A stretch of DNA of 64,000 nt from Deltaproteobacteria bacterium (GCA_016210005.1 JACQVA010000158.1:75180-139179), one strand, 5' to 3'; positions 9,940-26,028 are shown, counted from the stretch's first letter. Notes: generated from the sequence alone by a model not told the origin. Numbers and translations are program-made.

Positions 9940-10203
9940 ATGTCGATCTCCGTTCGTGTGATCATCAATGTAGCGCGGCAGTGGCAGCGCGTGAACGGCG
10001 CATCCACAGGCGTCGGAATTCCGTTGCACGTCCTGCTGGTTGCCGGTTGGCGCTGCTTCGCGCTACACCGGCGCGCATGTGGAGGCGATTCTTTTCACGC
10101 GGCGGCCGGTGCGGTGGCGACACCCGCGAGTTCCGGGCGCCACGTGGTGATTGTCACGCCCGGACGTATCCTGAAGCTGCAACCGTGTCCGCTACCCGGG
10201 TCG

Positions 10204-10602
10204 ATGCCGGCGAGTCAGGTGCAGCAGATCGAAAACCTGATTTCCCCGGCGGTGAAGCGGAACGTCGCTGCAATCGCGCACACCGAACTGACGGCGCTGC
10301 GGGAATCCGTGATCGAGGATCTCCGGTATTTCGGACGGAAGGTGGGGCGCCTGATTCTCAAGGAGGCTCGCAAGCAGCTCACGGCGGATCCGCTGGCGGA
10401 GACGGGACAGATGAAGAGCCTCCGTCCGAATCCAGTGGCGCAGCGAGAGCTGCGTCTATTCGGGAAATGCCGCGTGCTGTTCAATGTCGAGGCCGCGCGC
10501 GGCATCGTCGATGTGGTCCTCGTCGGAGAGAAGCGAGGCAATTCGCTCATCGTGCAGGGAAAGGAGTTCGTTGCGCACCATGAAAGTGATTCCGCTCAGT
10601 GA
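10204..10602 (+). CDS. RelE/ParE-superfamily toxin-like protein
   Basis: C-terminal ...ELRLFGKCRVLFNVEAARGIVDVVLVGEKRG resembles the RelE/ParE core; start MPASQVQQ at 10204 within the longer ORF 9841..10602. Confidence 0.45.
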   Translation: MPASQVQQIENLISPAVKRNVAAIAHTELTALRESVIEDLRYFGRKVGRLILKEARKQLTADPLAETGQMKSLRPNPVAQRELRLFGKCRVLFNVEAARGIVDVVLVGEKRGNSLIVQGKEFVAHHESDSAQ

Positions 10603-10640
10603 AGCCAAGGCGCACCTCAGCCGCTACGCGCGCGTGTGCC
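10580..10640 (+). pseudogene. Truncated Phd/YefM-type antitoxin start (MKVIPLSEAKAHLSRYAR), cut by repeat R1
   Basis: Characteristic Phd/YefM N-terminus present for only ~20 codons before the repeat sequence begins. Confidence 0.35.
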
Positions 10641-10895
10641 ACCCGTTCGGGAAGGTCGAGATGTGGTCGAGGGGCACCGGGAACCGTGCGACGGGGGCTG
10701 TGGTGGCCGCGTCTTCGATGACCGTTTCCAGCCCCCGACGGAGCGCGCGGAGGGGGAAGCGCGACGGCCCGGCGTCAATGGCCGCGACGTCCGCCTCGCG
10801 CCTGTGCCCTGGATCACTTCGCGGCACTCGCCGCTTGCCGCGTCCCACACCCGCACCGTCCGGTCATCTGACCCGCTGACGACCGCGCTCCCGAA
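10640..10895. repeat. Direct repeat R1 (core only) of the cassette-array repeat family
   Basis: Shares the core ccgttcgggaaggtcgagatgtg...ggcaccgggaacc...ctggatcacttcgcggcactcgccgc with copies R2-R7; minus-strand frame encodes a WD40-blade-like SDDRTVRVWDAASGECREVIQG. Confidence 0.8.
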
Positions 10896-11519
10896 TCAGA
10901 CTTGGTGAGAGCGACGGGCCGCGATCTCTCGGCTGGCCACGACCAATTCCCGGAAGTGCCGTGCCATAAAGAGCACCTTGGTGCCGTCACGCCGCTTCAT
11001 GGCCAGTGCGACGCTGCGAACGGCTCGGTACAGTTCCATCAAGTCGTCGACCGCGGGCAGCGGGCCGTCGGCAACGAAGGCATTGGTCAGCGCACGCATG
11101 ACGCCCTCTGGTGTCCCTTCGTGCACGAAGGGGTCGAAGCCGTTCAGATCGCTGAGGCTCTTTTGCAGCCGATACGCCTTCGCCTCGAAGACAAACCAGC
11201 GGTGCGTATCGGATAACTGGCTGAGGCCGACGGCCAACCCGAGCTCGAACGGCATATTGAACCGTGGGCAGCGCGGCGGCTCGTGCGACCGCTCAACGCG
11301 CGACAGATCGTGAATCGAAGCGTCACAGCTCTGCAGCAACTGGACGATCCGATCCAGGCGATTCCATGCCCGCGCCTGCGGCGGAATCTCGAGCACACAC
11401 CGCGGGTCGAGACCCAGGCCGGTCAGTCCGGCGATGAAGGCCAAATACAGGCGTTCGAACTTCGCATCGTAGGGGATGTTCAGGAAGACGGTGGTGCGGC
11501 GCTTGGGGCCAGCGGTCAT
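10896..11519 (-). CDS. Hypothetical protein, weakly TIR-like N-terminus
   Basis: 207-aa ORF MTAGPKRRTTVFLNIPYD...; the pattern VFLNIPY / SIHDLS / FELGLA is reminiscent of a TIR-like fold, but weak. Confidence 0.35.
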   Translation of the reverse strand: MTAGPKRRTTVFLNIPYDAKFERLYLAFIAGLTGLGLDPRCVLEIPPQARAWNRLDRIVQLLQSCDASIHDLSRVERSHEPPRCPRFNMPFELGLAVGLSQLSDTHRWFVFEAKAYRLQKSLSDLNGFDPFVHEGTPEGVMRALTNAFVADGPLPAVDDLMELYRAVRSVALAMKRRDGTKVLFMARHFRELVVASREIAARRSHQV

Positions 11520-11552
11520 CCGCGATGGGAGGAGTCGGCGCCGGTTCAGGCG

Positions 11553-11759
11553 TCAGGCAGGCCGCGCTCGTTTGCGGGCGAGCGACCGGGACCGCGGCGC
11601 TGTGGTCCCGCGCCCCTGGCGTTCGCCATTCTTCTTGGTCACCGCGTCCACGAGCTTCCGGATCCGGCGCAGCTCCGTGGCCGAGACACCGAGCAGACGT
11701 GCGGTCTCTTCCGTGGAGGGAGGCGACGTCTCAATCAAGAACGGCTTCGGATGCGCCAT
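11553..11759 (-). CDS. Small helix-turn-helix protein (sigma-70 region-4 / excisionase-like)
   Basis: 68 aa, ETARLLGVSATELRRIRKL HTH-like segment. Confidence 0.3.
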   Translation of the reverse strand: MAHPKPFLIETSPPSTEETARLLGVSATELRRIRKLVDAVTKKNGERQGRGTTAPRSRSLARKRARPA

Positions 11760-11828
11760 GGATCACGTATACGTCTGGTTGAGTGTCGGGTCAACGACGC
11801 GTTGGCGATGGACAACCTCGAGAACCGC

Positions 11829-12205
11829 GTGTGGCAGATGACGCATCGCTGATCGTTCGGACGATCCTCCGTGTTTACGCTCGGCGTCCTCGGTGCCTCT
11901 GTGGTTGGCTTCCTCCTGACCATCAGCCACCTGCGATCAAGCGATATGCCCCCTCTGGCTTTCCACTTTCAACTTTGGACTTTGGACTGTGTTCCATCCC
12001 GATTCAGGCGCGACCGTTCGGGAAGGTCGAGCTGTAATCGAGGGGCACCGGGAACCGCGCGACGGGGGCTGCGGTGACCGCGTCTTCGATAACCGTTTCG
12101 AGGCCACGACGGAGCGCGCGAAAGGGGAAGCACGACGGCCCGGCGGCAATGGCCTCGACGTCGCCCGTGCCCTGGATCACTTCGCGGCACTCGCCGCTGG
12201 CCTTA
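11829..12205. repeat. Direct repeat R2 (hairpin part + core)
   Basis: Left part gtggcagatgacgcatcgctgatcgttcggacgatcc...ctgaccatcagccacctgcgatcaagcgat forms an imperfect inverted repeat; core shared with R1-R7. Confidence 0.8.
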
Positions 12206-12322
12206 TCCTGGTGGAATGGAGAAGAGGCCGAAGAGCGGATGCTCCCGCGCAAAGGCGCCATGCCGCAAAGCAGGCGAGGCAGGAGCCGCTGCCGTGGCTG
12301 CCGAAGCCACCACCCCCCGGGC

Positions 12323-12781
12323 TTATGCCGCTCTGGAACGGAGGTAGTCCAGGCTCCCGGGTACATCGCGCACGATGCGTAAGAGCGCATCGTACGCGAC
12401 GCTTTGAACCGCCCGTTCCGTTTCCCAGCGCGCGACGAGGTCTTTGTTGACTCGGAGAGCGCGTGCTAATGCCGCGGCGCTCAGCCCGAGTTCTCTCCGC
12501 AGCGCGCCGATCTCCGTGGCAGCGAGCAACCGGTGCTTGCGCCGATAGATGGCCTGAGCGGAACGGAAGAGCAGGCGAGCCTCCGCCAGCGTGAACAGAC
12601 CCTCTCCGCAGCGAGGGCAGCCAAGGTGAGCGACGTCGCGTACCTGGATCGGCTCACCGTTGATGGCTAGCCGTACCTGTCTGCGTGTCGGCTTCATCGC
12701 CGTGCCGCACGAGGGGCAGGTGTCATCGTCGGGGCGTCCCCCGGCCCCGCGCCGGTTGTGCCTATTGTTTGTCGTCTTCAT
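12323..12781 (-). CDS. mqsA: MqsA-type antitoxin (zinc-finger + XRE HTH)
   Basis: Two CxxC pairs (CPSCG...CPRCG) followed by an HTH (LLAATEIGALRRELGLSAAALARALRVNKDLVARWE); lies downstream of mqsR as in the canonical mqsRA order. Confidence 0.6.
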   Translation of the reverse strand: MKTTNNRHNRRGAGGRPDDDTCPSCGTAMKPTRRQVRLAINGEPIQVRDVAHLGCPRCGEGLFTLAEARLLFRSAQAIYRRKHRLLAATEIGALRRELGLSAAALARALRVNKDLVARWETERAVQSVAYDALLRIVRDVPGSLDYLRSRAA

Positions 12782-13076
12782 GGAAGGAGATGACCACACA
12801 GTCGGAACGAAGGGCGAGCTTCAAATAGACGGGAATACCAGCAACTTCTGGTTTGAAGACGTACAGCCATTCCGGTGAGGTCTGAGACCGCAGCCGTTCG
12901 CCGAAGTCGTCGCGGGTCAGCTCGGACAGGACGAGGCACACATCGTCCGGATCGAGGCTCAGGTCGAGCGCCGCCAGCTCCACGAGTGCCTTGTCCGTTA
13001 GCCGGACGCTGCCCGATGCTGCGAGAGTGTGAATGCGATTGAGAACCTTTGAAAGCCATCGAGGCATGCACCACAA
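12762..13076 (-). CDS. mqsR: MqsR-family mRNA interferase toxin
   Basis: 104 aa; C-terminus PVYLKLALRSDCVVISFHEDDKQ matches the MqsR ...VYLKITVIHDVLIVSFKEK pattern. Confidence 0.65.
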   Translation of the reverse strand: MWCMPRWLSKVLNRIHTLAASGSVRLTDKALVELAALDLSLDPDDVCLVLSELTRDDFGERLRSQTSPEWLYVFKPEVAGIPVYLKLALRSDCVVISFHEDDKQ

Positions 13077-13178
13077 GCATCGACCGGCACACAGAATAGC
13101 TCAGGTTACCGTCTCGCAGCAACCTCGCATTCTGTCGGTCCTCCTCGTCGTAAATGCTGGTATCGAGAAGAACCTTCG

Positions 13179-13373
13179 TCACGCGACGCCGAAGATGTCG
13201 GTGAATCCACCGACGGCCTTCACGCGACGGTGGGGGCGCACGATTGCTTCTTCGGCGAGCACGAGATCGAGCGCACGTTCCACCGTTTCCCGCTGCGTCT
13301 TGGTACGCAGGATGCGGCGGGCACGATCGATCTTGGTCTGGCTGAGGCGGACGACAGCGGCTTTCGTGGTCAT
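13179..13373 (-). CDS. Orphan VapB/RHH-like antitoxin
   Basis: MTTKAAVVRLSQTKIDRARRILRTKTQRETVERALDLVL; no adjacent cognate toxin. Confidence 0.35.
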   Translation of the reverse strand: MTTKAAVVRLSQTKIDRARRILRTKTQRETVERALDLVLAEEAIVRPHRRVKAVGGFTDIFGVA

Positions 13374-13429
13374 GATGAGACGCACGATATTGCGGTCGGC
13401 AAGTTCTGCAACCCGGCAGCGCAGCGGCC

Positions 13430-13560
13430 ATCGCCATCGCCGCACGGGCGCGCTGCGGTTCGCCATCCAGACCCAGGGTGGCCACAGTGACTATGTCGAG
13501 TGGCGCCAGCGCACGCTCGGCACGCTCTCCGTCGACCGCGCGACGGCCCGGCGGCAATCC
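13430..13560 (+). repeat. Partial duplicate of the small gene at 16317-16556 (ALRF[AS]IQTQGG...DY.E.RQRTLG segment)
   Basis: About 85% nt identity to 16385-16485; reads on the plus strand, converging on the PIN gene at 13577-14008. Confidence 0.6.
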
Positions 13561-13576
13561 CGGACGACAGTCGCGG

Positions 13577-14008
13577 CTACGGGCGTGTTATCTTCAAGCG
13601 TCCCGCGACCCGCTCTTCTGCCAGAAACTCATACGGCAGCCTGACGCGTAGCCCGTAGAACTGGCCGCCAAGAAGATCGGCGAAATCTTCGCGATCCAGC
13701 GTCAGCAGCGTTCTTGAGCACGCAAGCGCGGTGAAGAGAATCGGGCGGTCCTTGCTGGCGGCGAAGATCACTGGGCGATCCAGGGAGACGATGTCATCCA
13801 CGATCATGAGCTGCGGTCGCAGGCGCAGCCATTCCACCGTCCCAGCAGCGGGCAGCTTGGGGAGGTTTCGAATCACCTCGTTGATTGCATAGGCGCTGCT
13901 CACCAGCGTCCATCCGGCCGCTGGCGCGAGATGAAAAATCGCGCGCGATGATCCTTTGGCAGAACCGCACGCCGCCAGCAGTACGCTTGCGTCGAGAAAG
14001 ACCTTCAC
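13577..14008 (-). CDS. vapC: PIN-domain toxin VapC
   Basis: MKVFLDASVLLAA PIN N-terminus; 4-nt overlap with upstream antitoxin. Confidence 0.75.
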   Translation of the reverse strand: MKVFLDASVLLAACGSAKGSSRAIFHLAPAAGWTLVSSAYAINEVIRNLPKLPAAGTVEWLRLRPQLMIVDDIVSLDRPVIFAASKDRPILFTALACSRTLLTLDREDFADLLGGQFYGLRVRLPYEFLAEERVAGRLKITRP

Positions 14009-14205
14009 TGTCCGGCAAGGAAACGGCGGTAGCCTGCCTCGTCATCGGCGATCCACCGTTCCATTTGCTCGCGGCTGAACTCACGCGGCGGCGGCAACGG
14101 GCCACTCTCCGCGCGCAACCGCGTCGCGAGGAACAAGAACAGCTCTTCCTGCTGTTCCGCCGGCAGCGCGTCGGCGGCGGCTTCGATCTCAGCAAGGGTG
14201 CTCAT
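14005..14205 (-). CDS. Antitoxin (Unstab_antitox / addiction-module-component-like)
   Basis: MSTLAEIEAAADALPAEQQEELFLFL... pattern of the putative addiction module component family; immediately upstream of VapC. Confidence 0.5.
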   Translation of the reverse strand: MSTLAEIEAAADALPAEQQEELFLFLATRLRAESGPLPPPREFSREQMERWIADDEAGYRRFLAGQ

Positions 14206-14269
14206 GCGAACGAAGTAGCACGCCTGCGCCGCTGGCGGCAAGGCTTGAGGCGGTGCGGTGCAGTGCAGT

Positions 14270-14760
14270 GTTTGTCGATGAACTCGCGCATCGCTGATCG
14301 TTCGGACGATCCTCCGTGTTTACGCTCGGCGTCCTCGGTGCCTCTGTGGTTGGCTTCCTCCTGACCATCAGCCATCTGCGATCAGCGATATGCCCCCTCT
14401 GGCTTTCCACTTCCAACTTTGGACCTTGAGCTGTCTTCCAGCGTGATGATGTACAGGTGATTCGCGCTCGTCCCGATTCAGGCGCGACCGTTCGGGAAGG
14501 TCGAGATGTGATCGAGGGGCACTGGGAACCATGCGACTGGTGCTCCGGTGGCCGCGTCTTCGATGACCGTTTCCAGCCCGCGACAGAGCGCGCGAAAAGG
14601 GAAGCGTGACGGCCCGGCGGCAATGGCCGCGACGTCGCTTGTGCCCTGAATTACTTCGCGGCACTCGCCGCTCGCCGCGTTCCACGCCCGCACCGTCTGG
14701 TCATCAGACCCGCTGGCGATCGTCGTGCCGTCGGCGCGGAGTCCGGTCTTTGGGCGGCCC
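14270..14760. repeat. Direct repeat R3 (hairpin + core + extended WD40-like blade)
   Basis: atcgctgatcg...gaccatcagccatctgcgatcagcgat hairpin then core; minus-strand frame encodes DGTTIASGSDDQTVRAWNAASGECREVIQG. Confidence 0.8.
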
Positions 14761-14871
14761 TCTTCGTCCGGAGCTCCGCGTTTACGCGACAAACAGGACG
14801 CGCCGCGCCTGGTCGGGCTTGCGCAGTCCGATTTCGACGTCGAGCTGTTGTCCCTCCGCCCGCGCCTTGGG

Positions 14872-15132
14872 TCACCCCTGTCGGCTGATCAGCCGCTCGT
14901 ATTCGTCGTGGGGACCGATCCAGACCCAGATGAAGTCGGCGCCGTCTTCGACCGCGAGGGCGCGGTGGGTAAGACCGGCCCGCACTGACCAGAGCTTGCC
15001 GACTTTCTTGAAATGGAGAGACGGATGGGCAGGATTCGCGCGCAGGAGTTCGAAATTCTCTCGCGCCACTCGCTGAGCTGACTGGGGCAAGCCAGCCAGG
15101 CGGGCCCAGAAGCGCGCGGTGGTGCGATGCAT
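14872..15132 (-). CDS. parE: ParE/RelE-family toxin
   Basis: 86 aa, WSVRAGLTHRALAVEDGADFIWVWIGPHDEY typical RelE/ParE C-terminus. Confidence 0.7.
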   Translation of the reverse strand: MHRTTARFWARLAGLPQSAQRVARENFELLRANPAHPSLHFKKVGKLWSVRAGLTHRALAVEDGADFIWVWIGPHDEYERLISRQG

Positions 15133-15333
15133 TCAGAGATCCCTGAGTTTGCCCTTCGCTTTCTCGTCGCCCGCTTCGCGGATCAGAAAATCGAGTCTGC
15201 CAGCCTGGGAGTCCGCCTCGATCTGCCGATCCCACCGCTCCCAGTCCTTCTCCGAGAGCCAGCGAAACAGCTCGCCGAGCTCCTCGGCGGGAAGCTGCTC
15301 GATTTCAGCTTTGAGTTCCTCTACGCGAGACAT
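15133..15333 (-). CDS. Antitoxin, putative addiction module component (Unstab_antitox-like)
   Basis: MSRVEELKAEIEQLPAEELGELFRWLSEKDWERWDRQIEADSQAGRLDFLI; directly upstream of parE. Confidence 0.6.
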   Translation of the reverse strand: MSRVEELKAEIEQLPAEELGELFRWLSEKDWERWDRQIEADSQAGRLDFLIREAGDEKAKGKLRDL

Positions 15334-15499
15334 CCGAACCTCCGTCCGACTCAAACCATACTGGAAGCACCCTCGGGCTTCCAGTGTCCGCAGCGGGACT
15401 GGTTGGCGGTGAATGCTGCAGGTGCAGAGCTGTTCTCCCTTCGTCCCGCCGTACGTCCGCAACTCCACTTCCAAGCTTGGACCTTAGACCTTGGACTTC

Positions 15500-15795
15500 G
15501 GACTCTCTTCCCCCTCCGGCTTTCCACTTTCAGCTTTCGGCTTTGAGCTGTCCTCCAGCGTGATGATGTACAGGTGGTTCGCGCTCGCCCCGACCCAGGC
15601 GCGACTGTCTGGGAAGGTCGAGATGTGATCGAGGGGCACCGGGAACCACGCGACGGGGGCCGCGGTGGCCGCGTCTTCGATGACCGTTTCCAGCCCCCGA
15701 CGGAGCGCGCGAAAGGGGAAGCGCGACGGCCCGGCGGCAATGGCCTCGGCGTCGCCCGTGGCCTGGATCACTTCGCGGCACTCACCGCTCGCCGC
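15500..15795. repeat. Direct repeat R4 (core)
   Basis: ggctttccactttcagctttcggctttgagctgtcctccagcgtgatgatgtacaggtg... core shared with other copies. Confidence 0.8.
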
Positions 15796-15829
15796 TGATT
15801 GAACTCGTTGAGCTGAACTCGTTGAGAGC

Positions 15830-16327
15830 TTGCCGAATTCCGATTGTGGCGGTACCGTACTCCTTGTGCGCATCTATCTGAACACGAGCGCGCTGAGCCG
15901 GCCGTTCGATGATCTGTCTCGCAGCCGAGCGCGTCACGAGGCAGAAGCCGTGAGCATGGTCGTCGCCGCCATTGAGGCACGACAGGCGGAGCTGGTCGCA
16001 TCGGAGTACTTGGTCTTCGAGCTGAGCCAGCATCCTGATCAAGAGCAAGCGCAGCGGATCGCGACCCCACTGCGGCTGGCCAAGACCATGGTGAAAGCCT
16101 CCGCTTCAGTAACCCTGCGAGCCCGCACCCTGGAGCAGTTTGGCCTGCGCGGATTAGATGCGCTGCACATCGCCAGCGCTGAAGCTGGAAAAGCGGATCT
16201 GCTCGTTACGACGGACGACCGGATGCTGAAGCGGGCGACGCGTGCGCGCGCCATGCTTCACGTGCGAGTGCTCTTGCCGGCAAGTGCCCTGGCGGTCATC
16301 TCGGAAGGAGGATCCCATGAAGAGTGA
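15830..16327 (+). CDS. vapC: PIN-domain toxin VapC-like
   Basis: TTG 15830 or in-frame GTG 15866 (MRIYLNTSALSRPFDD); PIN fold motifs. Confidence 0.7.
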   Translation: MPNSDCGGTVLLVRIYLNTSALSRPFDDLSRSRARHEAEAVSMVVAAIEARQAELVASEYLVFELSQHPDQEQAQRIATPLRLAKTMVKASASVTLRARTLEQFGLRGLDALHIASAEAGKADLLVTTDDRMLKRATRARAMLHVRVLLPASALAVISEGGSHEE

Positions 16328-16556
16328 GCGATTGACCGATGCGCAAGTCCGCGCCCTCGGGTGGGAAGCCTTGGTGGAGAAGCTCGGCCCCACGGGCGCG
16401 TTGCGGTTCAGCATCCAGACCCAGGGTGGCAACGGCGACTATGCCGAGTTGCGCCAGCGCACGCTCGGCCCGCTCTCCGTCGACCAATTGCTGGCCCGCA
16501 TGCGGTCGTCGTCGAAGACGGCCCGCCCCCGCCCGCGTCGCAGGCAACGGCCCTAA
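16317..16556 (+). CDS. Small protein overlapping the PIN gene 3-prime end (possible cognate antitoxin)
   Basis: MKSERLTDAQVRALGWEALVEKLGPTGALRFSIQTQGGNGDYAELRQRTLG...; 11-nt overlap with the PIN gene; a partial copy exists at 13430-13560. Confidence 0.4.
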   Translation: MKSERLTDAQVRALGWEALVEKLGPTGALRFSIQTQGGNGDYAELRQRTLGPLSVDQLLARMRSSSKTARPRPRRRQRP

Positions 16557-16589
16557 CAGCGTAACAGCCTAACCCCTTAACAACCTGTC

Positions 16590-16905
16590 CTCTGATCTAT
16601 TTTCGAGGCTGATGATGTACAGATGATTTGCGCTCGCCCCGACCCAGGTGCGACCGTTAGGGAAGGTCTTGATGTGCTCGAGGGGCACCGGGAACCACGC
16701 GACGGGGGCGGCGGTGGCCGCATCTTCGACGACCGTTTCCAGTCCCCGACGGAGCGCGCGAAAGGGGAAGCGCGACGGCCCGGCGGCAATGGCCTCGACG
16801 TCGCCCCGGCCCTGGATCACTTCGCGGCACTCGCCGCTCGCCGCGTGCCACACCCGCACCGTCTGGTCCGCAGCCCCGCTGACGACCCGTTGACGCATTT
16901 GGAAG
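16590..16905. repeat. Direct repeat R5 (core + extended blade)
   Basis: Core plus minus-strand RQRVVSGAADQTVRVWHAASGECREVIQG. Confidence 0.8.
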
Positions 16906-16967
16906 CGTCGCGCTGTGTCCGTTGCGGACCTCTGTGATATAGTTTGAACGGCAGTGGAGGAATACGG

Positions 16968-17216
16968 ATGCCGGCCCAGACCATAGAAGCACGGCTCCAC
17001 GCGCTCGAACGAGAGGTCACCCAGATCAAGCAGCTGCTGCAAGGCAAATCGGGGTCGGGCGACCCGTGGTGGGAACGCATCGCTGGAGCTTTTGAAGACG
17101 ATCCAGTCTACCAGCAAGCGATGAAGCTCGGACGGCAATACCGCGAATCCTTGCGGCCGAAGGGGCGCGAGCCTCGCGCGAAGAATCATGGTCGTCCTCG
17201 ACACCGACCATCTTAG
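16968..17216 (+). CDS. VapB-type antitoxin
   Basis: RBS GGAGG 7 nt upstream of ATG 16968; MPAQTIEARLHALEREVTQIKQLL; 3-prime end overlaps the VapC start. Confidence 0.55.
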   Translation: MPAQTIEARLHALEREVTQIKQLLQGKSGSGDPWWERIAGAFEDDPVYQQAMKLGRQYRESLRPKGREPRAKNHGRPRHRPS

Positions 17217-17618
17217 CCTGGTGGAATGGCGGGCGGGTTCGGACGCACGTTCGCTTCGTGCCCGACTGCGAGGAGTGGACCCCGCGTCAGTTGTCTCGAC
17301 CATCATCACCTTCGAGGAGCAAATGCGGGCTGGCTCGCGCAGTTGGCGAAGGCGCGGACGATGGCGCAGCAAGTCGCTGCCTACAGCCGGCTGAGCCGCC
17401 ACGTCCGCACGTTTCGCGAGGTGCCATTGCTGGAATTTGATGAGCGGGCTGCCGTCGAGTATCAGCGCCTGCGCAAGCTGCACCCCAGGACCGGCTCCAT
17501 GGACCTGAAGATCGCCGCCATCGTCCTGATCCACGGCGCCACGCTCCTCACAAGAAACGCGGCTGACTTCGGCGGAATACGTGGCCTGACAATCGAGGAT
17601 TGGACCGGGCTCGCGTGA
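17188..17618 (+). pseudogene. vapC: VapC PIN toxin disrupted by a frameshift near 17325-17340
   Basis: N-terminus MVVLDTDHLSLVEW...VSTIITFEEQ in frame 1 terminates at 17394; the conserved C-terminal half (WLAQLAKAR...DLKIAAIVLIHGATLLTRNAADFGGIRGL) continues in frame 0 (ORF 17226..17618). Confidence 0.55.
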
Positions 17619-17654
17619 CGCAAGGCCGAGCCGCCGTGCTCGCTCGGTGTCCTC

Positions 17655-17880
17655 GGTGTCTCTGTGTTTGCCTCCCCGCTGAGCCATCAGCCATCTGCGA
17701 TCAGCGATATGCTCCCTCTGGCTTTCCACTTTCAGCTTTCGCCTTTGAGCTGTCTTCTCCGCCCTCGAACGTGATGATGTACAGGTGATTCACGCTCGTC
17801 CGACCCAGGCGCGACCGTTCGGGAAGGTCGAGATGTGATCGAGGGGCACCGGGAACCGCGCGACGGGGGCTGCGGCTCCT
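17655..17880. repeat. Direct repeat R6 (right hairpin arm + truncated core)
   Basis: gagccatcagccatctgcgatcagcgatatgctccctctggctttccactttcagc...gtgatgatgtacaggtg...; core ends abruptly at ~17880. Confidence 0.7.
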
Positions 17881-17934
17881 ACAGTCACCGCGTGCTTGAG
17901 CCGCCTCGCGGAACTCGGCTATGATGTCGTTCAG

Positions 17935-18357
17935 ATGAAGGTCTTCCTCAGTTACGCCACTGTCGACAACAAGTGGGCGAGTCAGCTCCGTGAGCGGCTT
18001 GCCCACGCGGGTCTCGATGTGTGGGACCCGAACCGCGAGGTTCTTCCGGGCCAGGACTGGTCTGGGAAGATCAGCGGAGCCCTGCGCGACTCCGATGCAA
18101 TGGTTGTGCTGGTGTCACCGCAGGCCGCCGAGTCCGATTCAGTTCGGCGCGAGATCGAGTACGCACTCGGGTCGCCGCGCTATGCGCACCGCCTGATTCC
18201 CCTCGTCATCCGGCCCACGAGGAAGCTGCCGTGGATCCTGGAGCAGCTGCAGATGGTCCCGCTCAACAATAACATCGAGCGAGCCGCCCGAGCGATCGTC
18301 AAGCGACTGGAGCAGGGCACTGAGCGCGGCAAAGAAGCGCGGGCTGCGGCCCACTGA
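17935..18357 (+). CDS. TIR-domain protein (ThsB-like, TIR-only)
   Basis: MKVFLSYATVDNKWASQLRERLAHAGLDVWDP...AMVVLVSPQAAESDSVRREIEYAL canonical TIR layout; alternative upstream TTG 17896. Confidence 0.65.
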   Translation: MKVFLSYATVDNKWASQLRERLAHAGLDVWDPNREVLPGQDWSGKISGALRDSDAMVVLVSPQAAESDSVRREIEYALGSPRYAHRLIPLVIRPTRKLPWILEQLQMVPLNNNIERAARAIVKRLEQGTERGKEARAAAH

Positions 18358-18787
18358 GATCTTTCTCGCGCATTCCGCCCGCGACGTCGTCTTCGTCGCG
18401 GGGCTTGCCGAGCGGCTACGCGCCGATGGGATGCTCCCGTGGTACAGCGAGCGGCATATCGTCGGTGCGCGGCAATGGCACGACGAGATCGGCCAGGCCC
18501 TTGAGCGCTGCGATTGGTTCGCCGTGGTCCTCTCGCCATCGTCGGTGCGATCGGAATGGGTCAGACACGAGTTGCTCTACGCACTGGGCGAGGCACGTTA
18601 CCGGCGCCGGATCGTCCCGATCCTCTACCGGGCTTGTCAGGTCACTCGCCTCTCGTGGACCCTGCCAAGCTTTCAGTACATCGACTTCACAAAGGGATTC
18701 GACCCTGGCTACGCGGCTCTCCTTCGGGTCTGGGCGCGCGCATCAGCCTCCACGAGTGCGCGCCCATATCGGAGCCGCTCAAGGTGA
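18344..18787 (+). CDS. Second TIR-domain protein; conserved N-terminal beta-strand lies upstream of the only ATG, and no canonical start is in frame
   Basis: Frame open from stop 18194-18196 to 18787. Conserved IFLAHSARDVVFVAGLAERLRADGMLPWYSE...VVLSPSSVRSEWVRHELLYAL begins ~18359, but the first ATG/GTG/TTG is at 18431; only CTG at 18344. Frame is +1 relative to the preceding TIR gene, which ends at 18357. Confidence 0.45.
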   Translation: MRPTEIFLAHSARDVVFVAGLAERLRADGMLPWYSERHIVGARQWHDEIGQALERCDWFAVVLSPSSVRSEWVRHELLYALGEARYRRRIVPILYRACQVTRLSWTLPSFQYIDFTKGFDPGYAALLRVWARASASTSARPYRSRSR

Positions 18788-18807
18788 GCCGATCGGAAGG
18801 GACCCGC

Positions 18808-19290
18808 TTGTGGCAGATGGCATATGGCTGATCGTACGGACGACAGTTCGTGCGCTGGCTGGGTCTCCTCGGCGACTCTGTGTTTGCCTCCTCGCTGGAC
18901 CATCAGCCATCTGCGATCAGCGACATGCTCCGTCTGGCTTTGAGCTTTCAGCTTGTGGCTTGTAGCTCTCTCCGAGCGTGATGATGTACAAGTGATTCGC
19001 GCTCGCCCCGACCCAGGCGCGACCGTTCGGGAAGGTCGAGATATGATCGAGGGGCACCGGGAACCGCGCGACGGAGGTTGCGGTGGCCGCGTCTTCGATG
19101 ACCGTTTCCGGCCCCCGACGGAGCGCGCGAAAGGGGAAGCGCGACGGCCCGGCGGCAATGGCCTCGACGTGCGCCTCGCGGTCGCCCGTGCCCTGGATCA
19201 CGTTCCGCTCGCCGCTCGCCGCGTCCCAGACAGGCATCGTGTTGTCCAGAGGCGCGCTGACGATGGTGCGCCGTCAGCGCTCGGCGTCGA
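18808..19290. repeat. Direct repeat R7 (hairpin + core with ~15-bp insertion + diverged blade extension)
   Basis: ggcagatggcatatggctgatcg...gaccatcagccatctgcgatcagcgac hairpin; core 18960-19260. Confidence 0.8.
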
Positions 19291-19569
19291 CGGGCTGAGG
19301 TGCCACGGCAGCCCGAGCGGGTCGATCGCATCCTCAGTGGCGTTTGCATTGTCCACGAGGCCTCCCACGCCCTGAATACGCTCGTGGGCAGGGGTGGGAG
19401 GAAAAGCGAGGGCCGAGAACACATCGGCGGTGAGTACGGTGCGATCAGCGCCGGTGTCCACGAGGAACTCAGCCGCCAACCACAATCTGTCACGGGTAGC
19501 GACCTCGCCACGGATCACTGGCCGCTCGATGCCATCGTCGCAGAGCAACCATTCCCCGTTAACCCGCAT
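19198..19569 (-). CDS. Retropepsin-like (clan AA) aspartic protease
   Basis: LVDTGADRTVL = D-T/S-G-A active-site motif; C-terminal ~13 codons and stop lie inside repeat R7 (same stop position in all repeat copies). Confidence 0.5.
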   Translation of the reverse strand: MRVNGEWLLCDDGIERPVIRGEVATRDRLWLAAEFLVDTGADRTVLTADVFSALAFPPTPAHERIQGVGGLVDNANATEDAIDPLGLPWHLSPSTPSADGAPSSARLWTTRCLSGTRRAASGT

Positions 19570-19855
19570 AGATCCGGGCCACCTTCTCACGCGGGATGTA
19601 GCGAACGAAGCTGCCATCGTCGTCGGGATGCACCACCTTGGCTAATGCGCGGGCTTCTTGCGGTGTGTCCGCCACGAACAATTCTTCGCCCGCCACGCAA
19701 ATGTACTTCCCGCGATAGCGCGAATAGATCTCCGGAACATGCTCCTGCAGCCAAGCGGCGTTGCGATCGAAGCGCTCGCGTTGTGCCCGCGCTTTCGCAA
19801 GTTCCGCGGGGTCGGTGACCTCTTCCATCACGACCGAGCCATGATTGTCTGCCAT
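19559..19855 (-). CDS. Small protein, DUF5678-like partner of the aspartic protease
   Basis: MADNHGSVVMEEV...GKYICVAGEELFVADTPQEARALAKVVHPDD; overlaps the protease start by ~11 nt. Family assignment tentative. Confidence 0.35.
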   Translation of the reverse strand: MADNHGSVVMEEVTDPAELAKARAQRERFDRNAAWLQEHVPEIYSRYRGKYICVAGEELFVADTPQEARALAKVVHPDDDGSFVRYIPREKVARIYAG

Positions 19856-19880
19856 TGGACGCCCTTCTTCTTTTCGCATT

Positions 19881-20147
19881 CTACTGGCCGACCGTTATTG
19901 AAAGCAATCGCGCACATGATCGAGCGCCGCTTCCTCGCGAACGCCCCAGCGCAGGTCGATGGCCTGAAAGCGGCAGCCATGCCGTGCACACAGCTCCCGC
20001 AGACCTGCCCTGAGCGCAGTCGAACGGGCGCGGGAACACGTCGCGCTGCAAGGCGTCGCGCTCACGCTTGAGGTCCGTGAATGTCGAGCTGACGAAGACT
20101 CGAATGACAGGCCGGCGGCGGGGTTGTGCGTTGTCGTCTTCAATCAT
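19881..20147 (-). pseudogene. DUF4062 N-terminal fragment, internally frameshifted
   Basis: IRVFVSSTFTDLKRERDALQRDVFP in one frame (ORF 19881..20147) continues as LRELCARHGCRFQAIDLRWGVREEA in another (ORF 19895..20143); ~90 aa remnant only. Confidence 0.5.
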
Positions 20148-20327
20148 CGAGAGTCAGCCTCAAGCAGCGTTTGGACAACCTGCGTCCCGCCCGCGGCCCA
20201 GCACAGCCGCCACTGCGAGCTCGGCGGCGATGTGCGCGCCGGGCGAGTGGGAGGCGCAAATCCGCACTCCGCTTTGGGGCGTGTTCCGTTCTGCGCTCAT
20301 GATCTTGACTTCGAACGTCTTCTTGTT

Positions 20328-21557
20328 TCACTCCGCCCACAACGCTGACAACGGCACGAGCCACAGTTGATCGCCGGACGGTACAACCTGGTCACCCAAG
20401 TAAAGCACGATGCCGGCGGCGAACCGTTTGCGCAGTTGATCGCGCAAGGCGCGCAGCGCCGCGAAATCGGAGGCATCCACCGTGGCGCTGGCTTTGACTT
20501 CTACGGCGGCGATCGACCCGTCGGCCTTTTCCAGCACGACATCCACTTCCGAGCCGGTCGCCGTGCGAAAGTGGCACAGCGACGTTTGCGGATCCGTCCA
20601 GGAAATCTGCTTGTGGAGTTCGCCCACGACAAACGTCTCCAACATTCGCCCCAGCAAGGCGCGATCCTCGGTGAGCCGCCGGGCATTCGCGCCGAGGAGG
20701 TGGCAGGCCAAGCCGGTGTCCACCAGATGTAGTTTGGGCGCTTTGACCAGACGCTTGCCGAGGTTCGGCGACCACGCCGGCAGCCGATGAACCAGGAACA
20801 CCGTTTCCAGCAGCGACAGGTAGCGCGTCAGCGAGGTGTGCGGCAAGCGGGCGTCGCGACCCACGTCGGCGAGGTTCAGCAAGCCAGCGGCCCGGGCCGC
20901 CAGCAGCTTGAGCAGATTCGGCAGCGCGTGTAACGCGTCCACCCGCGCCAGATCGCGCACGTCTCGTTGCAGAATCGTGGAGATGTAGGACGCGAACCAC
21001 GCCGCCCGGCGTCCTTCATCTTTGCGCGCGACTGCTTCCGGGTAACCGCCGCGAGCCAATCGGACCGCAAGCTCATTCTTTGCGGAAACCAATTTCGCCT
21101 TGCCGACCGTGCCATCGAACAGGCGCTTCAAGAAGCCCTCGCGTTTGCCTGCGATTTCTCCCACCGAAAACGGAAACAAGGGAACGACCTCCATCCGCCC
21201 GGCCAGCGATTCCGACAACCGTGGCAGCGTCATCACATTGGCCGAACCAGTCAGCAGGAAGCGACCGGGCCGGCGGTTCTTGTCCACCGCGAGTTTGATG
21301 GCGGGAAACAGATCGGGGGCTTTCTGAATTTCATCGACAACGACCGGGCCAGACACGTTGCGAATGAACCCGGCCGGATCGCCGGCCGCCAACGCCAGCG
21401 TGGCGGCATCGTCGAAGGTGAAGTATTGCGCCCCGGTCTCTTCCGCGATCGCGCGGACCAGCGTGGTCTTCCCGGTCTGCCGCGCGCCGTTGAGCAGCAC
21501 CACCGGCGTGTCGGCCAACGCCTGCCGAATCGAGCCTTCGATGCTCCGCCGAATCAC
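20328..21557 (-). CDS. AAA+ ATPase with C-terminal DUF4143 (COG1373 family)
   Basis: 409 aa, Walker A GARQTGKTT, typical AAA_14 + DUF4143 architecture. Confidence 0.8.
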   Translation of the reverse strand: MIRRSIEGSIRQALADTPVVLLNGARQTGKTTLVRAIAEETGAQYFTFDDAATLALAAGDPAGFIRNVSGPVVVDEIQKAPDLFPAIKLAVDKNRRPGRFLLTGSANVMTLPRLSESLAGRMEVVPLFPFSVGEIAGKREGFLKRLFDGTVGKAKLVSAKNELAVRLARGGYPEAVARKDEGRRAAWFASYISTILQRDVRDLARVDALHALPNLLKLLAARAAGLLNLADVGRDARLPHTSLTRYLSLLETVFLVHRLPAWSPNLGKRLVKAPKLHLVDTGLACHLLGANARRLTEDRALLGRMLETFVVGELHKQISWTDPQTSLCHFRTATGSEVDVVLEKADGSIAAVEVKASATVDASDFAALRALRDQLRKRFAAGIVLYLGDQVVPSGDQLWLVPLSALWAE

Positions 21558-21639
21558 GGGGAGATATTCACCGGTTCGTGGTGAATTTGCAAGGCTTCAA
21601 AATACTCCCGAAGCCCGCCTCAGACCGACGGAAGGAGCA

Positions 21640-21760
21640 TCTTCTCGCTGATGGCTGATGGCCGATGGCAGGTCCCCCAATCAAGAGCGATAGCTCGGTG
21701 GTCGGCCCTCCACTGACCATCAGCCATCTGCGATCGGCCGTCTGCAAGCGGCCCGAGATC
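21640..21760. repeat. Solo copy of the repeat hairpin (R8), without the canonical core
   Basis: gctgatggctgatggccgatggcag...ctgaccatcagccatctgcgatcgg: inverted arms gatggctgatgg / ccatcagccatc ~60 bp apart. Confidence 0.6.
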
Positions 21761-21931
21761 ACTCGATAGTTCCGAAAATCGTCGAGGGGCGCAATCAAAT
21801 CAGATTGGCCGGTAGCGTGTCTGGCTTTGGACTTTTGAGTTTGCACTTTGGGCAGCGGGCGTAGCCCGCGCTGAGTTGCAGGTACGCGAGGACCGGGGCC
21901 TTTGCATTCTCATGCGTGTCCCCCTCGCGTG

Positions 21932-25365: not shown

Positions 25366-25578
25366 TCAGGCCGCGGCTCCGCGGCCACCCGCGGGAACGT
25401 CTTGAACAAGGTAGTCGAGTATCTCGCCTTGCATGCGCTCGATCTCCAGCCGGTACCCGGAACTCAGCGCCGCCCACTCCTCCGGCCGCGCGGTCTTGCG
25501 CAGTGCTTCGAGAAGCTTCTCCAAGCGTGCAACCCGTTCGCGGGCTACCGCCAGCTCCTGATCGTCACGGATCATCGT
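25366..25578 (-). CDS. Small alpha-helical protein downstream of the nucleotidyltransferase (possible partner)
   Basis: MIRDDQELAVARERVARLEKLLEALRK...; ~4-nt overlap with the upstream gene; no HEPN Rx4-6H motif seen. Confidence 0.3.
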   Translation of the reverse strand, partial: TMIRDDQELAVARERVARLEKLLEALRKTARPEEWAALSSGYRLEIERMQGEILDYLVQDVPAGGRGAAA

Positions 25579-26009: not shown

Positions 26010-26028
26010 CGCTGCTCTTGTATATCAC

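What the first reader, a model, noticed from the sequence alone, without database searches (positions are those of the whole stretch)
10600..21900. Repeat-punctuated cassette array of TA / TIR / PIN modules (integron-like or tandem-insertion hotspot), no integrase visible
At least seven same-orientation copies (R1-R7, plus solo hairpin R8) of a ~230-470 bp repeat sit between every small gene module from 10.6 to 21.9 kb: RelE-like / TIR-like + HTH / MqsRA + orphan antitoxin + VapBC / ParE-antitoxin / PIN + small gene / antitoxin + VapC / TIR-TIR / aspartic protease + partner + DUF4062 fragment + DUF4143 ATPase. The repeat has two parts. (i) A ~100-bp imperfect hairpin: atcgctgatcg...gaccatcagccatctgcgatcagcgat. 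(ii) A ~230-bp core with >85% nt identity between copies; its minus-strand frame reads as the last blade of a WD40 protein (ASGSDDQTVRVWDAASGECREVIQG...). Genes inside cassettes are on either strand, but all repeats point the same way. This is the signature of serial site-specific integration at one target (each insertion regenerating the 3-prime end of a WD40 gene) or of a sedentary-integron / CALIN-type cassette array with unusually long, highly conserved attC-like sites. Cassette content (about ten TA-like modules) matches what sedentary integrons accumulate. Neither an integron integrase nor a tyrosine recombinase is present in the window.
Basis: partly seen in the sequence, partly recalled or inferred. 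Interest (0 to 1): 0.85.

Follow-up and report, generated by a model that had tools for sequence, protein, structure and literature searches.

The report
Defence-gene array punctuated by NLR-gene tails
A stretch of a Binatia-like bacterial genome strings together about ten toxin-antitoxin, TIR and PIN modules. They are separated by seven decaying copies of the last ~300-560 bases of an NLR-like immune gene, so this is not an integron but an unusual array, most likely built and reshuffled by recombination within those copies.

Summary
Seven same-orientation repeats (10643-19272), a solo inverted repeat (21641-21745) and one extra 21-nt remnant (13538-13558) separate small TA/TIR/PIN modules.

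The repeat ("H") is the 3' end of a TIR/DUF4062-NB-ARC-WD40 NLR-like gene. It holds the last WD40 blade, a ~70-aa propeller-like cap domain found at the C-terminus of 610 protein clusters, a low-complexity tail and an imperfect inverted repeat.

It is not an integron. There are no attC core motifs, no conserved hairpin fold and no Rfam hit. No integrase or transposase domain turned up in the ORFs scanned, and there is no tRNA.

The same cargo+H units occur in other Binatia MAGs and metagenomes at 85-94% identity, with different neighbours. One H copy (L011) is a mosaic of two window types. H-to-H deletions and internal deletions of the parent gene can be inferred from the comparisons.

The copies form a star-like tree, 8-15% apart, under relaxed constraint (pN/pS about 0.6), so the array is old and decaying.

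Best reading: cargo+H units are gained, duplicated, lost and exchanged by recombination inside H, probably homologous. A trans-acting site-specific recombinase is not excluded. I call it a new variant of tandem accretion at a gene's 3' end, of moderate interest.

The parts
10643..10893 (-). H copy R1. It has the last WD40 blade and part of the cap domain, with an 8-nt insertion that shifts the frame. Its 3' part (tail and inverted repeat) is deleted and the copy is fused to a truncated Phd/YefM-like gene.
   Evidence: the junction with the 207-aa gene is shared with L002 and L003
11828..12202 (-). H copy R2. It has the inverted repeat, a shortened tail and the cap domain starting at 'ASGECREV', with an in-frame TGA.
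13538..13558 (-). 21-nt remnant of a further, mostly deleted H copy. It is identical to H positions in R4, R5 and R7. It is attached to 13439-13537, a 90%-identical remnant of the small gene at 16387-16485.
   Evidence: (family D9)
14261..14737 (-). H copy R3, the most complete copy: last blade, cap domain (with an in-frame TGA), tail and inverted repeat.
15440..15795 (-). H copy R4. The cap reading frame is open from 'ASGECREV', the low-complexity tail is doubled, and there is no inverted repeat.
   Evidence: equals database protein P0012
16593..16886 (-). H copy R5. The frame is open from 'VVSGAADQTVRVWH' to 'ISLE'. The tail differs from the other copies and there is no inverted repeat.
   Evidence: equals P0007
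17624..17875 (-). H copy R6. It is strongly 5'-truncated (only 'AAPVARFPVPLDHISTFPNGRAWVG...' remains), followed by the tail and a partial inverted repeat.
18807..19272 (-). H copy R7: last blade, cap domain (with a 12-nt insertion and a 3-nt deletion, both in frame), tail and inverted repeat (30-nt arms, 80% complementary).
   Evidence: equals P0015
21641..21745 (-). R8, a solo inverted repeat (35-nt arms, 74% complementary; DNA fold z = -3.3). It lies downstream of the 3' end of the DUF4062-NACHT-TPR gene, and a tail-like low-complexity stretch sits at about 21822-21855.
   Evidence: the tail-like stretch is from direct reading
10294..10642 (+). Module 0: a RelE-like toxin (by sequence reading only) and a 3'-truncated Phd/YefM-like antitoxin that starts at 10581. 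The same module is intact and flanked by two H copies in L003; its antitoxin there carries a PhdYeFM Pfam hit.
   Evidence: 93% to L003 10622-10970 and to L012 769-1117
10896..11759 (-). Module 1: a 207-aa protein with no family hit (weak resemblance to nucleoside 2-deoxyribosyltransferase, a TIR-like fold class) and a 68-aa HTH-like protein (by reading only).
   Evidence: 91% identical over 1190 nt to L002 4318-5491
12203..14241 (-). Compound interval between R2 and R3. It holds a VapC N-terminal remnant (12203-12320, + strand), MqsA (12323-12799), MqsR (12762-13076), a VapB-like orphan (13179-13466), cassette and H remnants (13439-13558), a PIN_3 VapC (13577-14008) and a VapB-like gene (14005-14241).
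   Evidence: MqsRA is 93% identical to L015 387-1214
14872..15474 (-). Module: ParE-like toxin (14872-15132) and an upstream antitoxin ORF (15133-15474).
   Evidence: collinear with both flanking H copies in L011 2-1165 at 87%
15830..16556 (+). Module: PIN protein (15830-16327) and a small partner gene (16242-16556).
   Evidence: a paralogous remnant lies at 13439-13537
16944..17618 (+). Module: a small antitoxin-like ORF (16944-17216) and a VapC/PIN split between two frames (17188-17394 and 17226-17618), probably a pseudogene.
   Evidence: the junction with R5 is shared with L013
17896..18965 (+). Module: a TIR_2 protein (17896-18357; a promoter-like site at 17896-17925 sits at the module boundary) and a paralogous TIR-like ORF (18405-18965).
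   Evidence: TIR1 is 85% identical to L002 3577-4041, where it is joined to a differently truncated H
19198..21557 (-). Head of the array in gene sense. It holds an Asp_protease_2 ORF that runs into R7 (19198-19617), a weakly DUF5678-like ORF (19559-19879), a DUF4062 N-terminal fragment (19881-20147; 94% identical to the start of the 1582-aa DUF4062-NACHT gene of L003) and an AAA_14-DUF4143 ATPase that matches PADLOC PDC-S01 (20328-21557).

Best explanation
What it is (shown). The region is an old, decaying array in a defence island of a Binatia-like bacterium. A module I call H is repeated at least eight times in one orientation. H is the last WD40 blade, a ~70-aa propeller-like cap domain and the 3' UTR (low-complexity tail plus an imperfect inverted repeat) of a TIR/DUF4062-NB-ARC-WD40 NLR-like gene. 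Each H copy is separated from the next by a small, self-contained toxin-antitoxin, TIR or PIN module. The intact parent gene is not present in this window.

How it works (inferred). The unit of change is cargo plus H. Because every unit carries 250-560 nt of shared sequence, units can do four things:
- insert into a resident H by a single crossover of a circular [H+cargo] molecule (Campbell-type insertion with duplication);
- be duplicated or deleted by unequal or intramolecular H-to-H recombination;
- be swapped between genomes by double crossovers in flanking H copies;
- then decay by small deletions.

I take this recombination to be general homologous (RecA-type) recombination rather than the work of a dedicated recombinase. 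The TA modules probably stabilise the array against larger deletions. The net effect is an integron-like store of TA and defence modules built without attC sites or an integron integrase.
For: Identity of H:
- H is a gene 3' end. The minus-strand frame is open in most copies.
- The cap domain is C-terminal in 610 protein clusters, including 700-1600-aa DUF4062/STAND-WD40 proteins.
- L004 carries TIR_2-NB-ARC-APAF1_C-WD40-cap followed by the same tail.

Units recur elsewhere:
- The 207-aa/HTH module with its H junction recurs in L002 and L003.
- RelE/Phd is flanked by two H copies in L003. That arrangement was assembled independently from five samples.
- The ParE module with both flanking H copies recurs in L011. 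MqsRA recurs in L015 and TIR1 in L002.

Neighbours differ:
- TIR1 abuts the HTH/207-aa module in L002 but lies five modules away from it in the window.
- After 207aa-H, L002 has MqsA-like/UPF0175 where the window and L003 have Phd/RelE.

Recombination and loss:
- The L011 copy has an R4-type tail and an R7-type 5' part, sharing R7's 12-nt insertion and 3-nt deletion. This points to a crossover inside H.
- There is an H remnant at 13538-13558 and a duplicated [small gene + H] remnant.
- A 3.3-kb deletion of the parent gene body separates L008 from L004.

No recombinase signature:
- No integrase or transposase domain was found in the window ORFs scanned, or in the genes with Pfam hits on record or scanned here in L002-L004, L014 and L016-L022.
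- There is no tRNA, no attC motif and no block of exceptional synonymous conservation that would mark a core site.
Against: - No circular intermediate, recA dependence or population polymorphism could be examined.
- The copies are 8-15% diverged, which lowers the efficiency of homologous recombination.
- The tree is star-like with no age gradient along the array. Part of the order (207aa-H-Phd/RelE) is shared with L003. Much of the structure may therefore be vertically inherited, and differences may arise by loss alone.
- Both the L002 and the L011 arrangements can be derived from a window-like ancestor by H-to-H deletion.
- The 5' ends of H fall in loose clusters. This could hint at preferred joining sites.
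- How the first H duplication arose is unexplained.
- Only 64 kb of a 174.5-kb contig, and none of the rest of the MAG, could be seen, so a trans-acting recombinase cannot be excluded.
Confidence: 0.5

Rival explanations
1. Serial site-specific integration. Small integrase-less elements, or remnants of larger ones, are mobilised in trans by a tyrosine or serine recombinase encoded elsewhere. Each carries its own copy of the NLR gene's 3' end as attP and integrates into that gene's 3' end. Each event pushes the older 3' end downstream, as with e14/icd-icdC or tycheposons at tRNA genes. The target gene later decayed.
For: - The direct repeats are the duplicated 3' end of one gene, all in one orientation, with cargo between them.
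- Cargo keeps both of its junctions when found in other genomes. This is what an element carrying a contiguous attP-like H would predict.
- The mosaic H in L011 fits a crossover inside H.
- In-frame indels and pN/pS about 0.6 fit copies that served for a time as the functional gene end.
- Known precedents exist (PMC13626634; 10.1101/2020.12.28.424599).
Against: - No recombinase domain turned up in the window ORFs scanned or in the genes of related loci that were scanned or have Pfam hits on record.
- No intact target gene sits at the head of the array.
- No short, exceptionally conserved core is visible.
- There is no age gradient from head to tail.
- The repeats are 5-20 times longer than usual att repeats.
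Confidence: 0.25
2. Graveyard of tandem NLR paralogues. The locus once held several full-length TIR/DUF4062-NB-ARC-WD40 genes alternating with TA modules. Each gene was later removed by internal deletions. Only the 3' ends survive because deletions that reach the adjacent TA module or its promoter are lethal or selected against.
For: - Internal deletion of the parent that leaves the C-terminal part is seen directly in L008 versus L004, in L022 and in the DUF4062-cap fusion P0042/L007.
- STAND genes and DUF4062 fragments are abundant around the array.
- The TIR module boundary coincides with a promoter-like site.
- The copies are old and nearly neutral.
Against: - Seven or more independent truncations of ~4.5-kb genes should leave remnants of very different lengths. 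Instead nearly all copies keep only the last 55-110 codons, and their 5' ends cluster.
- No NB-ARC or other WD40-blade remnants occur between the copies.
- A [small gene + H] unit is duplicated as a unit.
- Cargo order differs between genomes.
Confidence: 0.12
3. H is itself a selected or selfish element. It could be a small gene (~100-aa propeller fragment), a terminator or insulator, or a MITE-like non-autonomous element that has spread into the intergenic gaps of a pre-existing TA island.
For: - Most copies keep an open ~98-codon frame, and four of five indels are in frame.
- In the database, close relatives (above about 70% identity) are almost all short fragments.
- H has a common 3' end, and some copies have imperfect terminal inverted arms.
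Against: - R1 has a frameshift, R2 and R3 have stops, and R6 is a stump.
- N-termini and start codons differ from copy to copy.
- pN/pS is 0.58 overall and near 1 for several copies.
- No target-site duplication was seen on reading the junctions. All copies have the same orientation and all lie in one array.
- The terminator and promoter scans are at background level.
Confidence: 0.08
4. Sedentary integron or CALIN. The repeats are unusually long attC sites recombined by an integron integrase located outside the window.
For: There are same-orientation repeats between small, TA-rich cassettes, and no integrase nearby, as in CALINs.
Against: - No R''/R' core motifs occur in any repeat or anywhere in the array.
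- There is no conserved bulged hairpin. The consensus fold is -3.2 kcal/mol with no convincing covariation.
- The repeats are decayed coding sequence of 250-560 nt.
- Cassettes are one- or two-gene modules on both strands.
- Rfam finds nothing.
Confidence: 0.02

Closest known systems
e14 (and phage 21) integration into icd, leaving the icdC C-terminal pseudogene
   Same: An inserted element is bounded by a duplicate of the 3' end of a protein-coding gene. The displaced 3' fragment remains as a pseudogene, and recombination between the two copies yields chimeric gene ends (PMC13626634).
   Different: e14 is a single ~15-kb element with its own integrase and an intact host gene. Here there are at least eight fragments, 0.7-2-kb cargo without any recombinase, and no intact parent gene. 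Site-specificity is not shown.
Tycheposons and tRNA-gene islands with tandem accretion
   Same: Successive integrations at one site push older elements further into the island. They leave partial copies of the target gene and degenerate cargo-only remnants (10.1101/2020.12.28.424599).
   Different: The target there is a tRNA gene, the repeats are short partial tRNAs, and tyrosine recombinases are found on many elements. None of this applies here.
Sedentary chromosomal integrons / CALINs
   Same: Same-orientation repeats separate many small cassettes enriched in toxin-antitoxin systems.
   Different: There are no attC core sites or fold and no intI. The repeats are 3-8 times longer and derive from coding sequence. 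Cargo lies on both strands.
Orphan toxin-immunity arrays downstream of rhs / cdiA genes (own knowledge)
   Same: Arrays of modules each keep a fragment of the conserved part of a large parent gene. That fragment gives homology for recombinational swapping.
   Different: In those arrays the conserved fragment lies 5' of an in-frame variable toxin tip. Here the fragment is the extreme 3' end plus UTR, and the cargo consists of independent operons that are not fused to it.
pdif (XerC/D) modules of Acinetobacter plasmids (own knowledge)
   Same: Small discrete modules, often TA systems, are bounded by repeated recombination sites and occur in different contexts.
   Different: pdif sites are 28-bp Xer sites in alternating orientation. 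No such sites were recognised here, although I did not search for them formally.

Membership tests
Integron / CALIN cassette array | attC sites: 57-141 bp, with R'' (RYYYAAC) and R' (GTTRRRY) core sites at the ends | tested here: not met
   A regex scan of both strands found 0 paired motifs in 10000-22500 and 0 single motifs in R2, R3, R6, R7 and R8. The repeats are 250-560 nt.
Integron / CALIN cassette array | Conserved imperfect bulged hairpin of the single-stranded attC | tested here: not met
   DNA folds give z-scores of -0.9 to -2.3 for R2, R3 and R7, and -3.3 only for R8. The consensus fold of 8 copies is -3.2 kcal/mol with a covariation term of -0.27.
Integron / CALIN cassette array | Integron integrase (intI) adjacent to the array (absent by definition in CALINs) | tested here: not met
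   No phage-integrase or other recombinase domain was found in the window ORFs scanned with Pfam. The rest of the genome could not be seen.
Site-specific integrative elements at a gene 3' end (e14/icd, tycheposon-like) | Direct repeats are duplicates of the 3' end of the target gene | tested here: met
   H is the last WD40 blade, the cap domain and the 3' UTR of an NB-ARC-WD40 gene.
Site-specific integrative elements at a gene 3' end (e14/icd, tycheposon-like) | Intact target gene at one end of the array | tested here: not met
   R7 is preceded by an Asp-protease ORF and a DUF4062 fragment. No NB-ARC-WD40 gene is in the window.
Site-specific integrative elements at a gene 3' end (e14/icd, tycheposon-like) | Integrase on at least some elements, and a short precise crossover core | tested here: inconclusive
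   No integrase was found in the window or among the scanned or pre-annotated genes of related loci. No exceptionally conserved block lies within H. One crossover is localised only to a ~200-nt stretch.
Homologous-recombination (Campbell-type) insertion-duplication array | Long shared homology flanking every unit, mosaic repeats, and H-to-H deletions | tested here: met
   H copies are 250-560 nt and 80-93% identical. L011 carries a mosaic H. There are deletion derivatives and remnants.
Homologous-recombination (Campbell-type) insertion-duplication array | RecA dependence and circular [H+cargo] intermediates | not testable with these tools
   This needs raw reads, long reads or genetics.
MITE / REP dispersed repeat | Many copies dispersed genome-wide in both orientations, with terminal inverted repeats and target-site duplications | tested here: inconclusive
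   Within 64 kb all copies lie in one array and in one orientation. No target-site duplication was seen at the hairpin ends on reading. The rest of the genome is not available.
NLR-like STAND NTPase (the parent gene of H) | N-terminal effector, then NB-ARC/NACHT NTPase, a helical domain and C-terminal WD40 repeats | tested here: met
   L004 has a DUF4062 fragment, TIR_2, NB-ARC (1.5e-31), APAF1_C, WD40 and the cap domain. P0059 has DUF4062, AAA_16/NACHT, HTH_NWD1, about 13 WD40 blades and the cap domain. L005 is a 1340-aa WD40 protein ending in the cap domain.

The most novel reading that the evidence does not exclude
The H module is the recombination substrate of a still-active, integron-analogous cassette system of Binatia. 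Cargo+H units excise as circles and re-insert at any H, through RecA or through an as yet unseen recombinase that recognises the conserved cap-coding core. TA and anti-phage modules would thus shuttle between genomes using a fragment of an NLR immune gene as the portable attachment site.
Probability: 0.2. Interest if true: 0.8.

Novelty: new variant of a known kind. Interest (0 to 1): 0.55.

Why it matters
If cargo+H units really move, this would be a cassette-accumulation system that works without attC sites or an integron integrase. It would use several hundred bases of an immune-gene 3' end as portable homology. That is a different route to the same outcome as sedentary integrons, a modular and exchangeable store of TA and defence genes.

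It would also link NLR-like genes to the architecture of defence islands in a little-studied phylum.

Even under the conservative reading (an old array eroding by H-to-H deletion) it is useful in two ways. It is a clear natural example of how long direct repeats and TA modules shape island turnover. It is also a warning that integron-like arrays can arise from pseudogene fragments.

Tried and rejected
- **attC / integron reading.** A motif scan, folds and Rfam (only a sub-threshold P33 match) were all negative.
- **tRNA target.** There are no tRNA or tmRNA genes in the window.
- **Recombinase hunt.** Pfam on the window ORFs selected for scanning and on selected ORFs of L003, L004 and L014, plus the precomputed Pfam of L002-L003 and L016-L022, found none.
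- **Recovering the source contig.** Exact-protein look-ups returned only short Logan contigs that break at the repeats. The NCBI 174.5-kb contig could not be fetched.
- **Genome and metagenome scans.** The genome-contig scan returned only 2 loci because the tool chose one narrow peptide pattern. The metagenome DNA scan gave 10 mostly short contigs.
- **Widespread orphan fragments.** I suspected that the many short 'VRVWD...' cap-domain proteins in databases were orphan H fragments. The one I looked up (P0051) sits at a contig start, so at least some are assembly breaks inside WD40 repeats rather than real fragments.
- **H as a functional small gene.** Relaxed constraint, stops, a frameshift and variable N-termini argue against it.
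- **Assembly chimera.** Rejected. The copies differ by 8-15%, and the two-H arrangement of L003 was assembled from five independent samples.
- **Terminator function of the inverted repeat.** The scan is at background level.
- **Identity of the 207-aa protein.** Pfam, NCBIfam, PADLOC and PDB gave nothing beyond a weak nucleoside deoxyribosyltransferase match.
- **Self-tblastx of the array.** The output was mostly noise apart from the TIR1/TIR2 paralogy.

Full report
**1.

A blastn search with the 451-nt copy at 14280-14730 finds seven plus-strand copies: 10643-10885, 11842-12202, 14280-14730, 15510-15795, 16593-16885, 17624-17875 and 18824-19267. They are 80-89% identical to that copy. There is also a hairpin-only match at 21694-21738, and nothing else in 64 kb. 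The repeat finder and an nhmmer profile agree. The profile adds only a 21-nt remnant at 13538-13558.

- MqsA/MqsR, a VapB-like orphan, and PIN_3 VapC with a VapB-like gene
- ParE-like toxin with an antitoxin ORF
- PIN with a small partner gene
- an antitoxin-like ORF with a frame-split PIN
- TIR_2 with a paralogous TIR-like ORF (the paralogy is from tblastx)
- Asp_protease_2, a weak DUF5678 match, a DUF4062 fragment and AAA_14-DUF4143, which matches PADLOC candidate PDC-S01 at E = 1e-170.

The large repeat-containing gene just beyond the array (21932-23986) is TPR_10/TPR_12, not WD40.

**2. What the repeat is**

On the minus strand every copy reads as the end of a protein. It has the last WD40 blade (SGSDDQTVRVWD), a further ~70 residues (ECREVIQGTGDVEAIAAGPSRFPFRALRRGLETVIEDAATAAPVAWFPVPLDHISTFPNGRAWVGASANHLYIITLE), a low-complexity tail and a stop. 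A ~110-nt stretch bounded by imperfect inverted arms follows. I call the whole unit H.

A phmmer search of 1.84 billion cluster representatives with the 79-aa cap segment of R4 finds 610 clusters. The matches listed lie at or close to the C-terminus. They include many 700-1600-aa proteins. Examples have a DUF4062 or other N-terminal domain, a STAND NTPase, a helical domain, about 13 WD40 blades and then this cap. A profile of the cap matches designed propeller blades in the PDB, so it is a closing blade.

A close relative of the parent gene survives, frameshifted, in a Candidatus Binatia MAG (L004). It has a DUF4062 fragment, TIR_2, NB-ARC (E = 1.5e-31), APAF1_C, one WD40 blade, the cap and the same tail. 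A distant intact relative is the 1340-aa WD40 protein of a Gimesia MAG (L005).

The window comes from an NCBI MAG labelled 'Deltaproteobacteria bacterium' (locus tags HY699_152xx). Four database proteins from its 174.5-kb contig correspond to R2, R4, R5 and R7.

**3. It is not an integron**

- No RYYYAAC...GTTRRRY pair, nor either motif alone, occurs in any repeat.
- The inverted arms are 11-35 nt and 74-80% complementary.
- Folding z-scores are weak except for R8.
- Eight copies give a consensus fold of only -3.2 kcal/mol.
- In the parent context (L004, L008) only the distal arm is conserved.
- Rfam finds nothing, and there is no tRNA.
- Pfam scans of the window ORFs chosen for scanning find no integrase or transposase.

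**4. Evidence from other genomes**

Close relatives of H are rare. One genome locus and ten metagenome stretches matched, plus contigs reached through proteins. Several window modules recur in them at 85-94% identity together with their H junctions:
- The HTH/207-aa module with R1 recurs in L002, and a remnant of it in L003.
- RelE/Phd is intact and flanked by two H copies in L003. This arrangement was assembled from five independent samples. It also rules out an assembly chimera.
- The ParE module with both flanking H copies recurs in L011.
- MqsRA recurs in L015, and TIR1 in L002.

Neighbours differ between genomes:
- In L002 TIR1 directly abuts the HTH/207-aa module, five modules away from its position in the window.
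- After 207aa-H the window and L003 have Phd/RelE, while L002 has MqsA-like/UPF0175.
- L011 places an H after the UPF0175 segment, where L002 has flanking metabolic genes.

The H copy of L011 is a mosaic. Its tail is of the R4 type. Its 5' part shares R7's 12-nt insertion and 3-nt deletion. This locates a crossover inside H.

**5. Decay**

- R1 has a frameshift. R2 and R3 share an in-frame TGA. R6 is a stump.
- A 21-nt H piece and a 99-nt piece of the small gene (90% identical to 16387-16485) mark a lost [small gene + H] unit in the R2-R3 interval. A VapC N-terminal remnant fills 12203-12320.
- Compared with L004, L008 and L010 have lost 3.3 kb of the parent gene body but keep the last ~200 codons.
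- L022 keeps two blades plus the cap after an unrelated gene.
- P0042/L007 fuses a DUF4062 N-terminus in frame to the last ~50 codons.

The copies form a star-like tree, 8-15% apart. Window copies are no closer to each other than to copies in other genomes, and there is no gradient along the array.

Substitutions favour third codon positions only mildly (1088: 867: 1686). pN/pS is about 0.58, and four of five indels are in frame. That fits sequences that were once functional gene ends and now drift.

**6. Boundaries**

The 3' limit of H is common to copies with different cargo (...GCCATCTGCCACA).

The 5' limits fall in three loose clusters:
- near the start of the last blade (R1-type, R3, R5, R7, L015)
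- at 'DQTV' (L009, L012)
- at 'ASGEC' (R2, R4, L003b).

There are outliers: R6, the L002 TIR junction and L007. The clustering is only modestly above chance by my rough count. The TIR module boundary coincides with a promoter-like site, so some limits may reflect selection on the cargo.

**7. Mechanism**

Shown:
- H is a duplicated gene 3' end.
- Cargo+H units recur with conserved junctions.
- H copies recombine with each other (the L011 mosaic).
- Units and parent genes are lost by deletion.

Inferred: units are gained, duplicated and exchanged through recombination within H. I favour general homologous recombination, that is, Campbell-type insertion of circular [H+cargo], unequal crossing-over, and double crossovers after gene transfer. 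My confidence is 0.5. The reasons are that H is long, no recombinase or core site is visible, and the ends are ragged.

Rivals:
- A trans-acting site-specific recombinase, as for e14/icd-icdC (PMC13626634) or tycheposons (10.1101/2020.12.28.424599). Confidence 0.25. It would explain conserved junctions and partial coding constraint equally well.
- A graveyard of independently truncated tandem NLR genes. Confidence 0.12. It is weakened by the narrow length range of the remnants and by the absence of any NB-ARC debris.
- H as a functional or MITE-like element. Confidence 0.08.
- A true integron. Confidence 0.02.

**8. Novelty and interest**

The closest known systems are tandem accretion at a gene's 3' end and sedentary integrons. 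This array differs from the first in having tiny integrase-less cargo, at least eight repeats, a protein-coding NLR target and no surviving target gene. It differs from the second in every defining feature of attC.

I class it as a new variant of a known kind, with interest 0.55. The structure is unusual and testable with reads or long-read genomes. The evidence points to an old, eroding array in a narrow lineage rather than a demonstrably active system.

Noticed in passing
window 21932-25249 (-): A DUF4062-NACHT-TPR STAND gene appears split into three overlapping ORFs: 24395-25249 (DUF4062), 23353-24501 (NACHT/AAA_16) and 21932-23986 (TPR_10/TPR_12). This is probably a frameshifted pseudogene or a set of assembly errors. 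Its 3' flank carries the solo inverted repeat R8 and a tail-like stretch, so the tail/hairpin module is not exclusive to the WD40 gene.
   Followed up: partly
window 22152-23072: Six or more 126-nt tandem units are present (repeat finder family D3). They encode 42-aa TPR_10/TPR_12 repeats and could easily be mistaken for WD40 blades.
   Followed up: yes
window 20328-21557 (-): The AAA_14-DUF4143 ATPase matches the PADLOC candidate defence family PDC-S01 at E = 1e-170.
   Followed up: partly
window 17188-17618 (+): The VapC/PIN of the R5-R6 module is covered by two ORFs in different frames (17188-17394 and 17226-17618). Pfam matches only the C-terminal half of the PIN domain. This is probably a toxin pseudogene next to its antitoxin.
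   Followed up: no
window 42608-55496: A second defence cluster lies here. It includes a type I R-M system whose HsdR carries an inserted CarboxypepD_reg domain (42608-45280), HsdM and HsdS. It also has a 1078-aa DEAD helicase, an AAA protein with an nSTAND3 match, a YhcG PDDEXK nuclease and a DprA-like fragment. A Schlafen AlbA_2 ORF lies at 58352-58699.
   Followed up: no
window 3958-9012 (-); L003 13577-17011; L016 9412-11292: RyR-domain proteins recur next to these arrays: AAA-RyR (982 aa) here, a 1144-aa RyR protein in L003 and TrkA_N-RyR in L016. A 638-aa protein with a TIR-like N-terminus and a hydrophobic segment (by reading of its sequence) lies at 3958-5874. Their role in this island is unknown.
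   Followed up: no
L015 1350-1442 (-): A second, much more diverged cap-domain remnant (51% identity, hmmsearch E = 1e-12) lies on the other side of the MqsRA module. Fragments of a different NLR paralogue may therefore also bound modules.
   Followed up: partly
L007 409-744; protein P0042: A DUF4062 N-terminus (~65 aa) is fused in frame to the last ~50 codons of the cap domain. This is an internal-deletion derivative of the parent gene annotated as a 136-aa protein.
   Followed up: partly
L004 6438-9720 versus L008 and L010: Syntenic loci about 95% identical differ by a 3.3-kb deletion. It removes the DUF4062, TIR and NB-ARC parts of the parent gene and leaves about 200 C-terminal codons.
   Followed up: yes
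L004 9152-10426; P0002; P0050; L022: Parent-like genes in these assemblies show only 1-3 WD40 blades, against about 13 in distant full-length relatives. Either short-read assembly collapsed the near-identical blades or the blades were really lost. The cap-domain protein I looked up (P0051) begins at 'VRVWD' at a contig start (L023), so at least some such short database proteins are assembly breaks.
   Followed up: partly
window 10896-11519 (-): The 207-aa protein has no Pfam, NCBIfam or PADLOC hit and only a weak PDB match to nucleoside 2-deoxyribosyltransferase. It is conserved at 91% with its H junction in L002. It may be a TIR/NDT-like effector paired with the 68-aa HTH-like protein.
   Followed up: partly
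window 25366-26565 (-): A DUF6932 protein (25572-26009) sits next to an 86-aa ORF, and a further DUF4062/NPHP3-like fragment lies at 26029-26565. This is more STAND debris upstream of the array.
   Followed up: no
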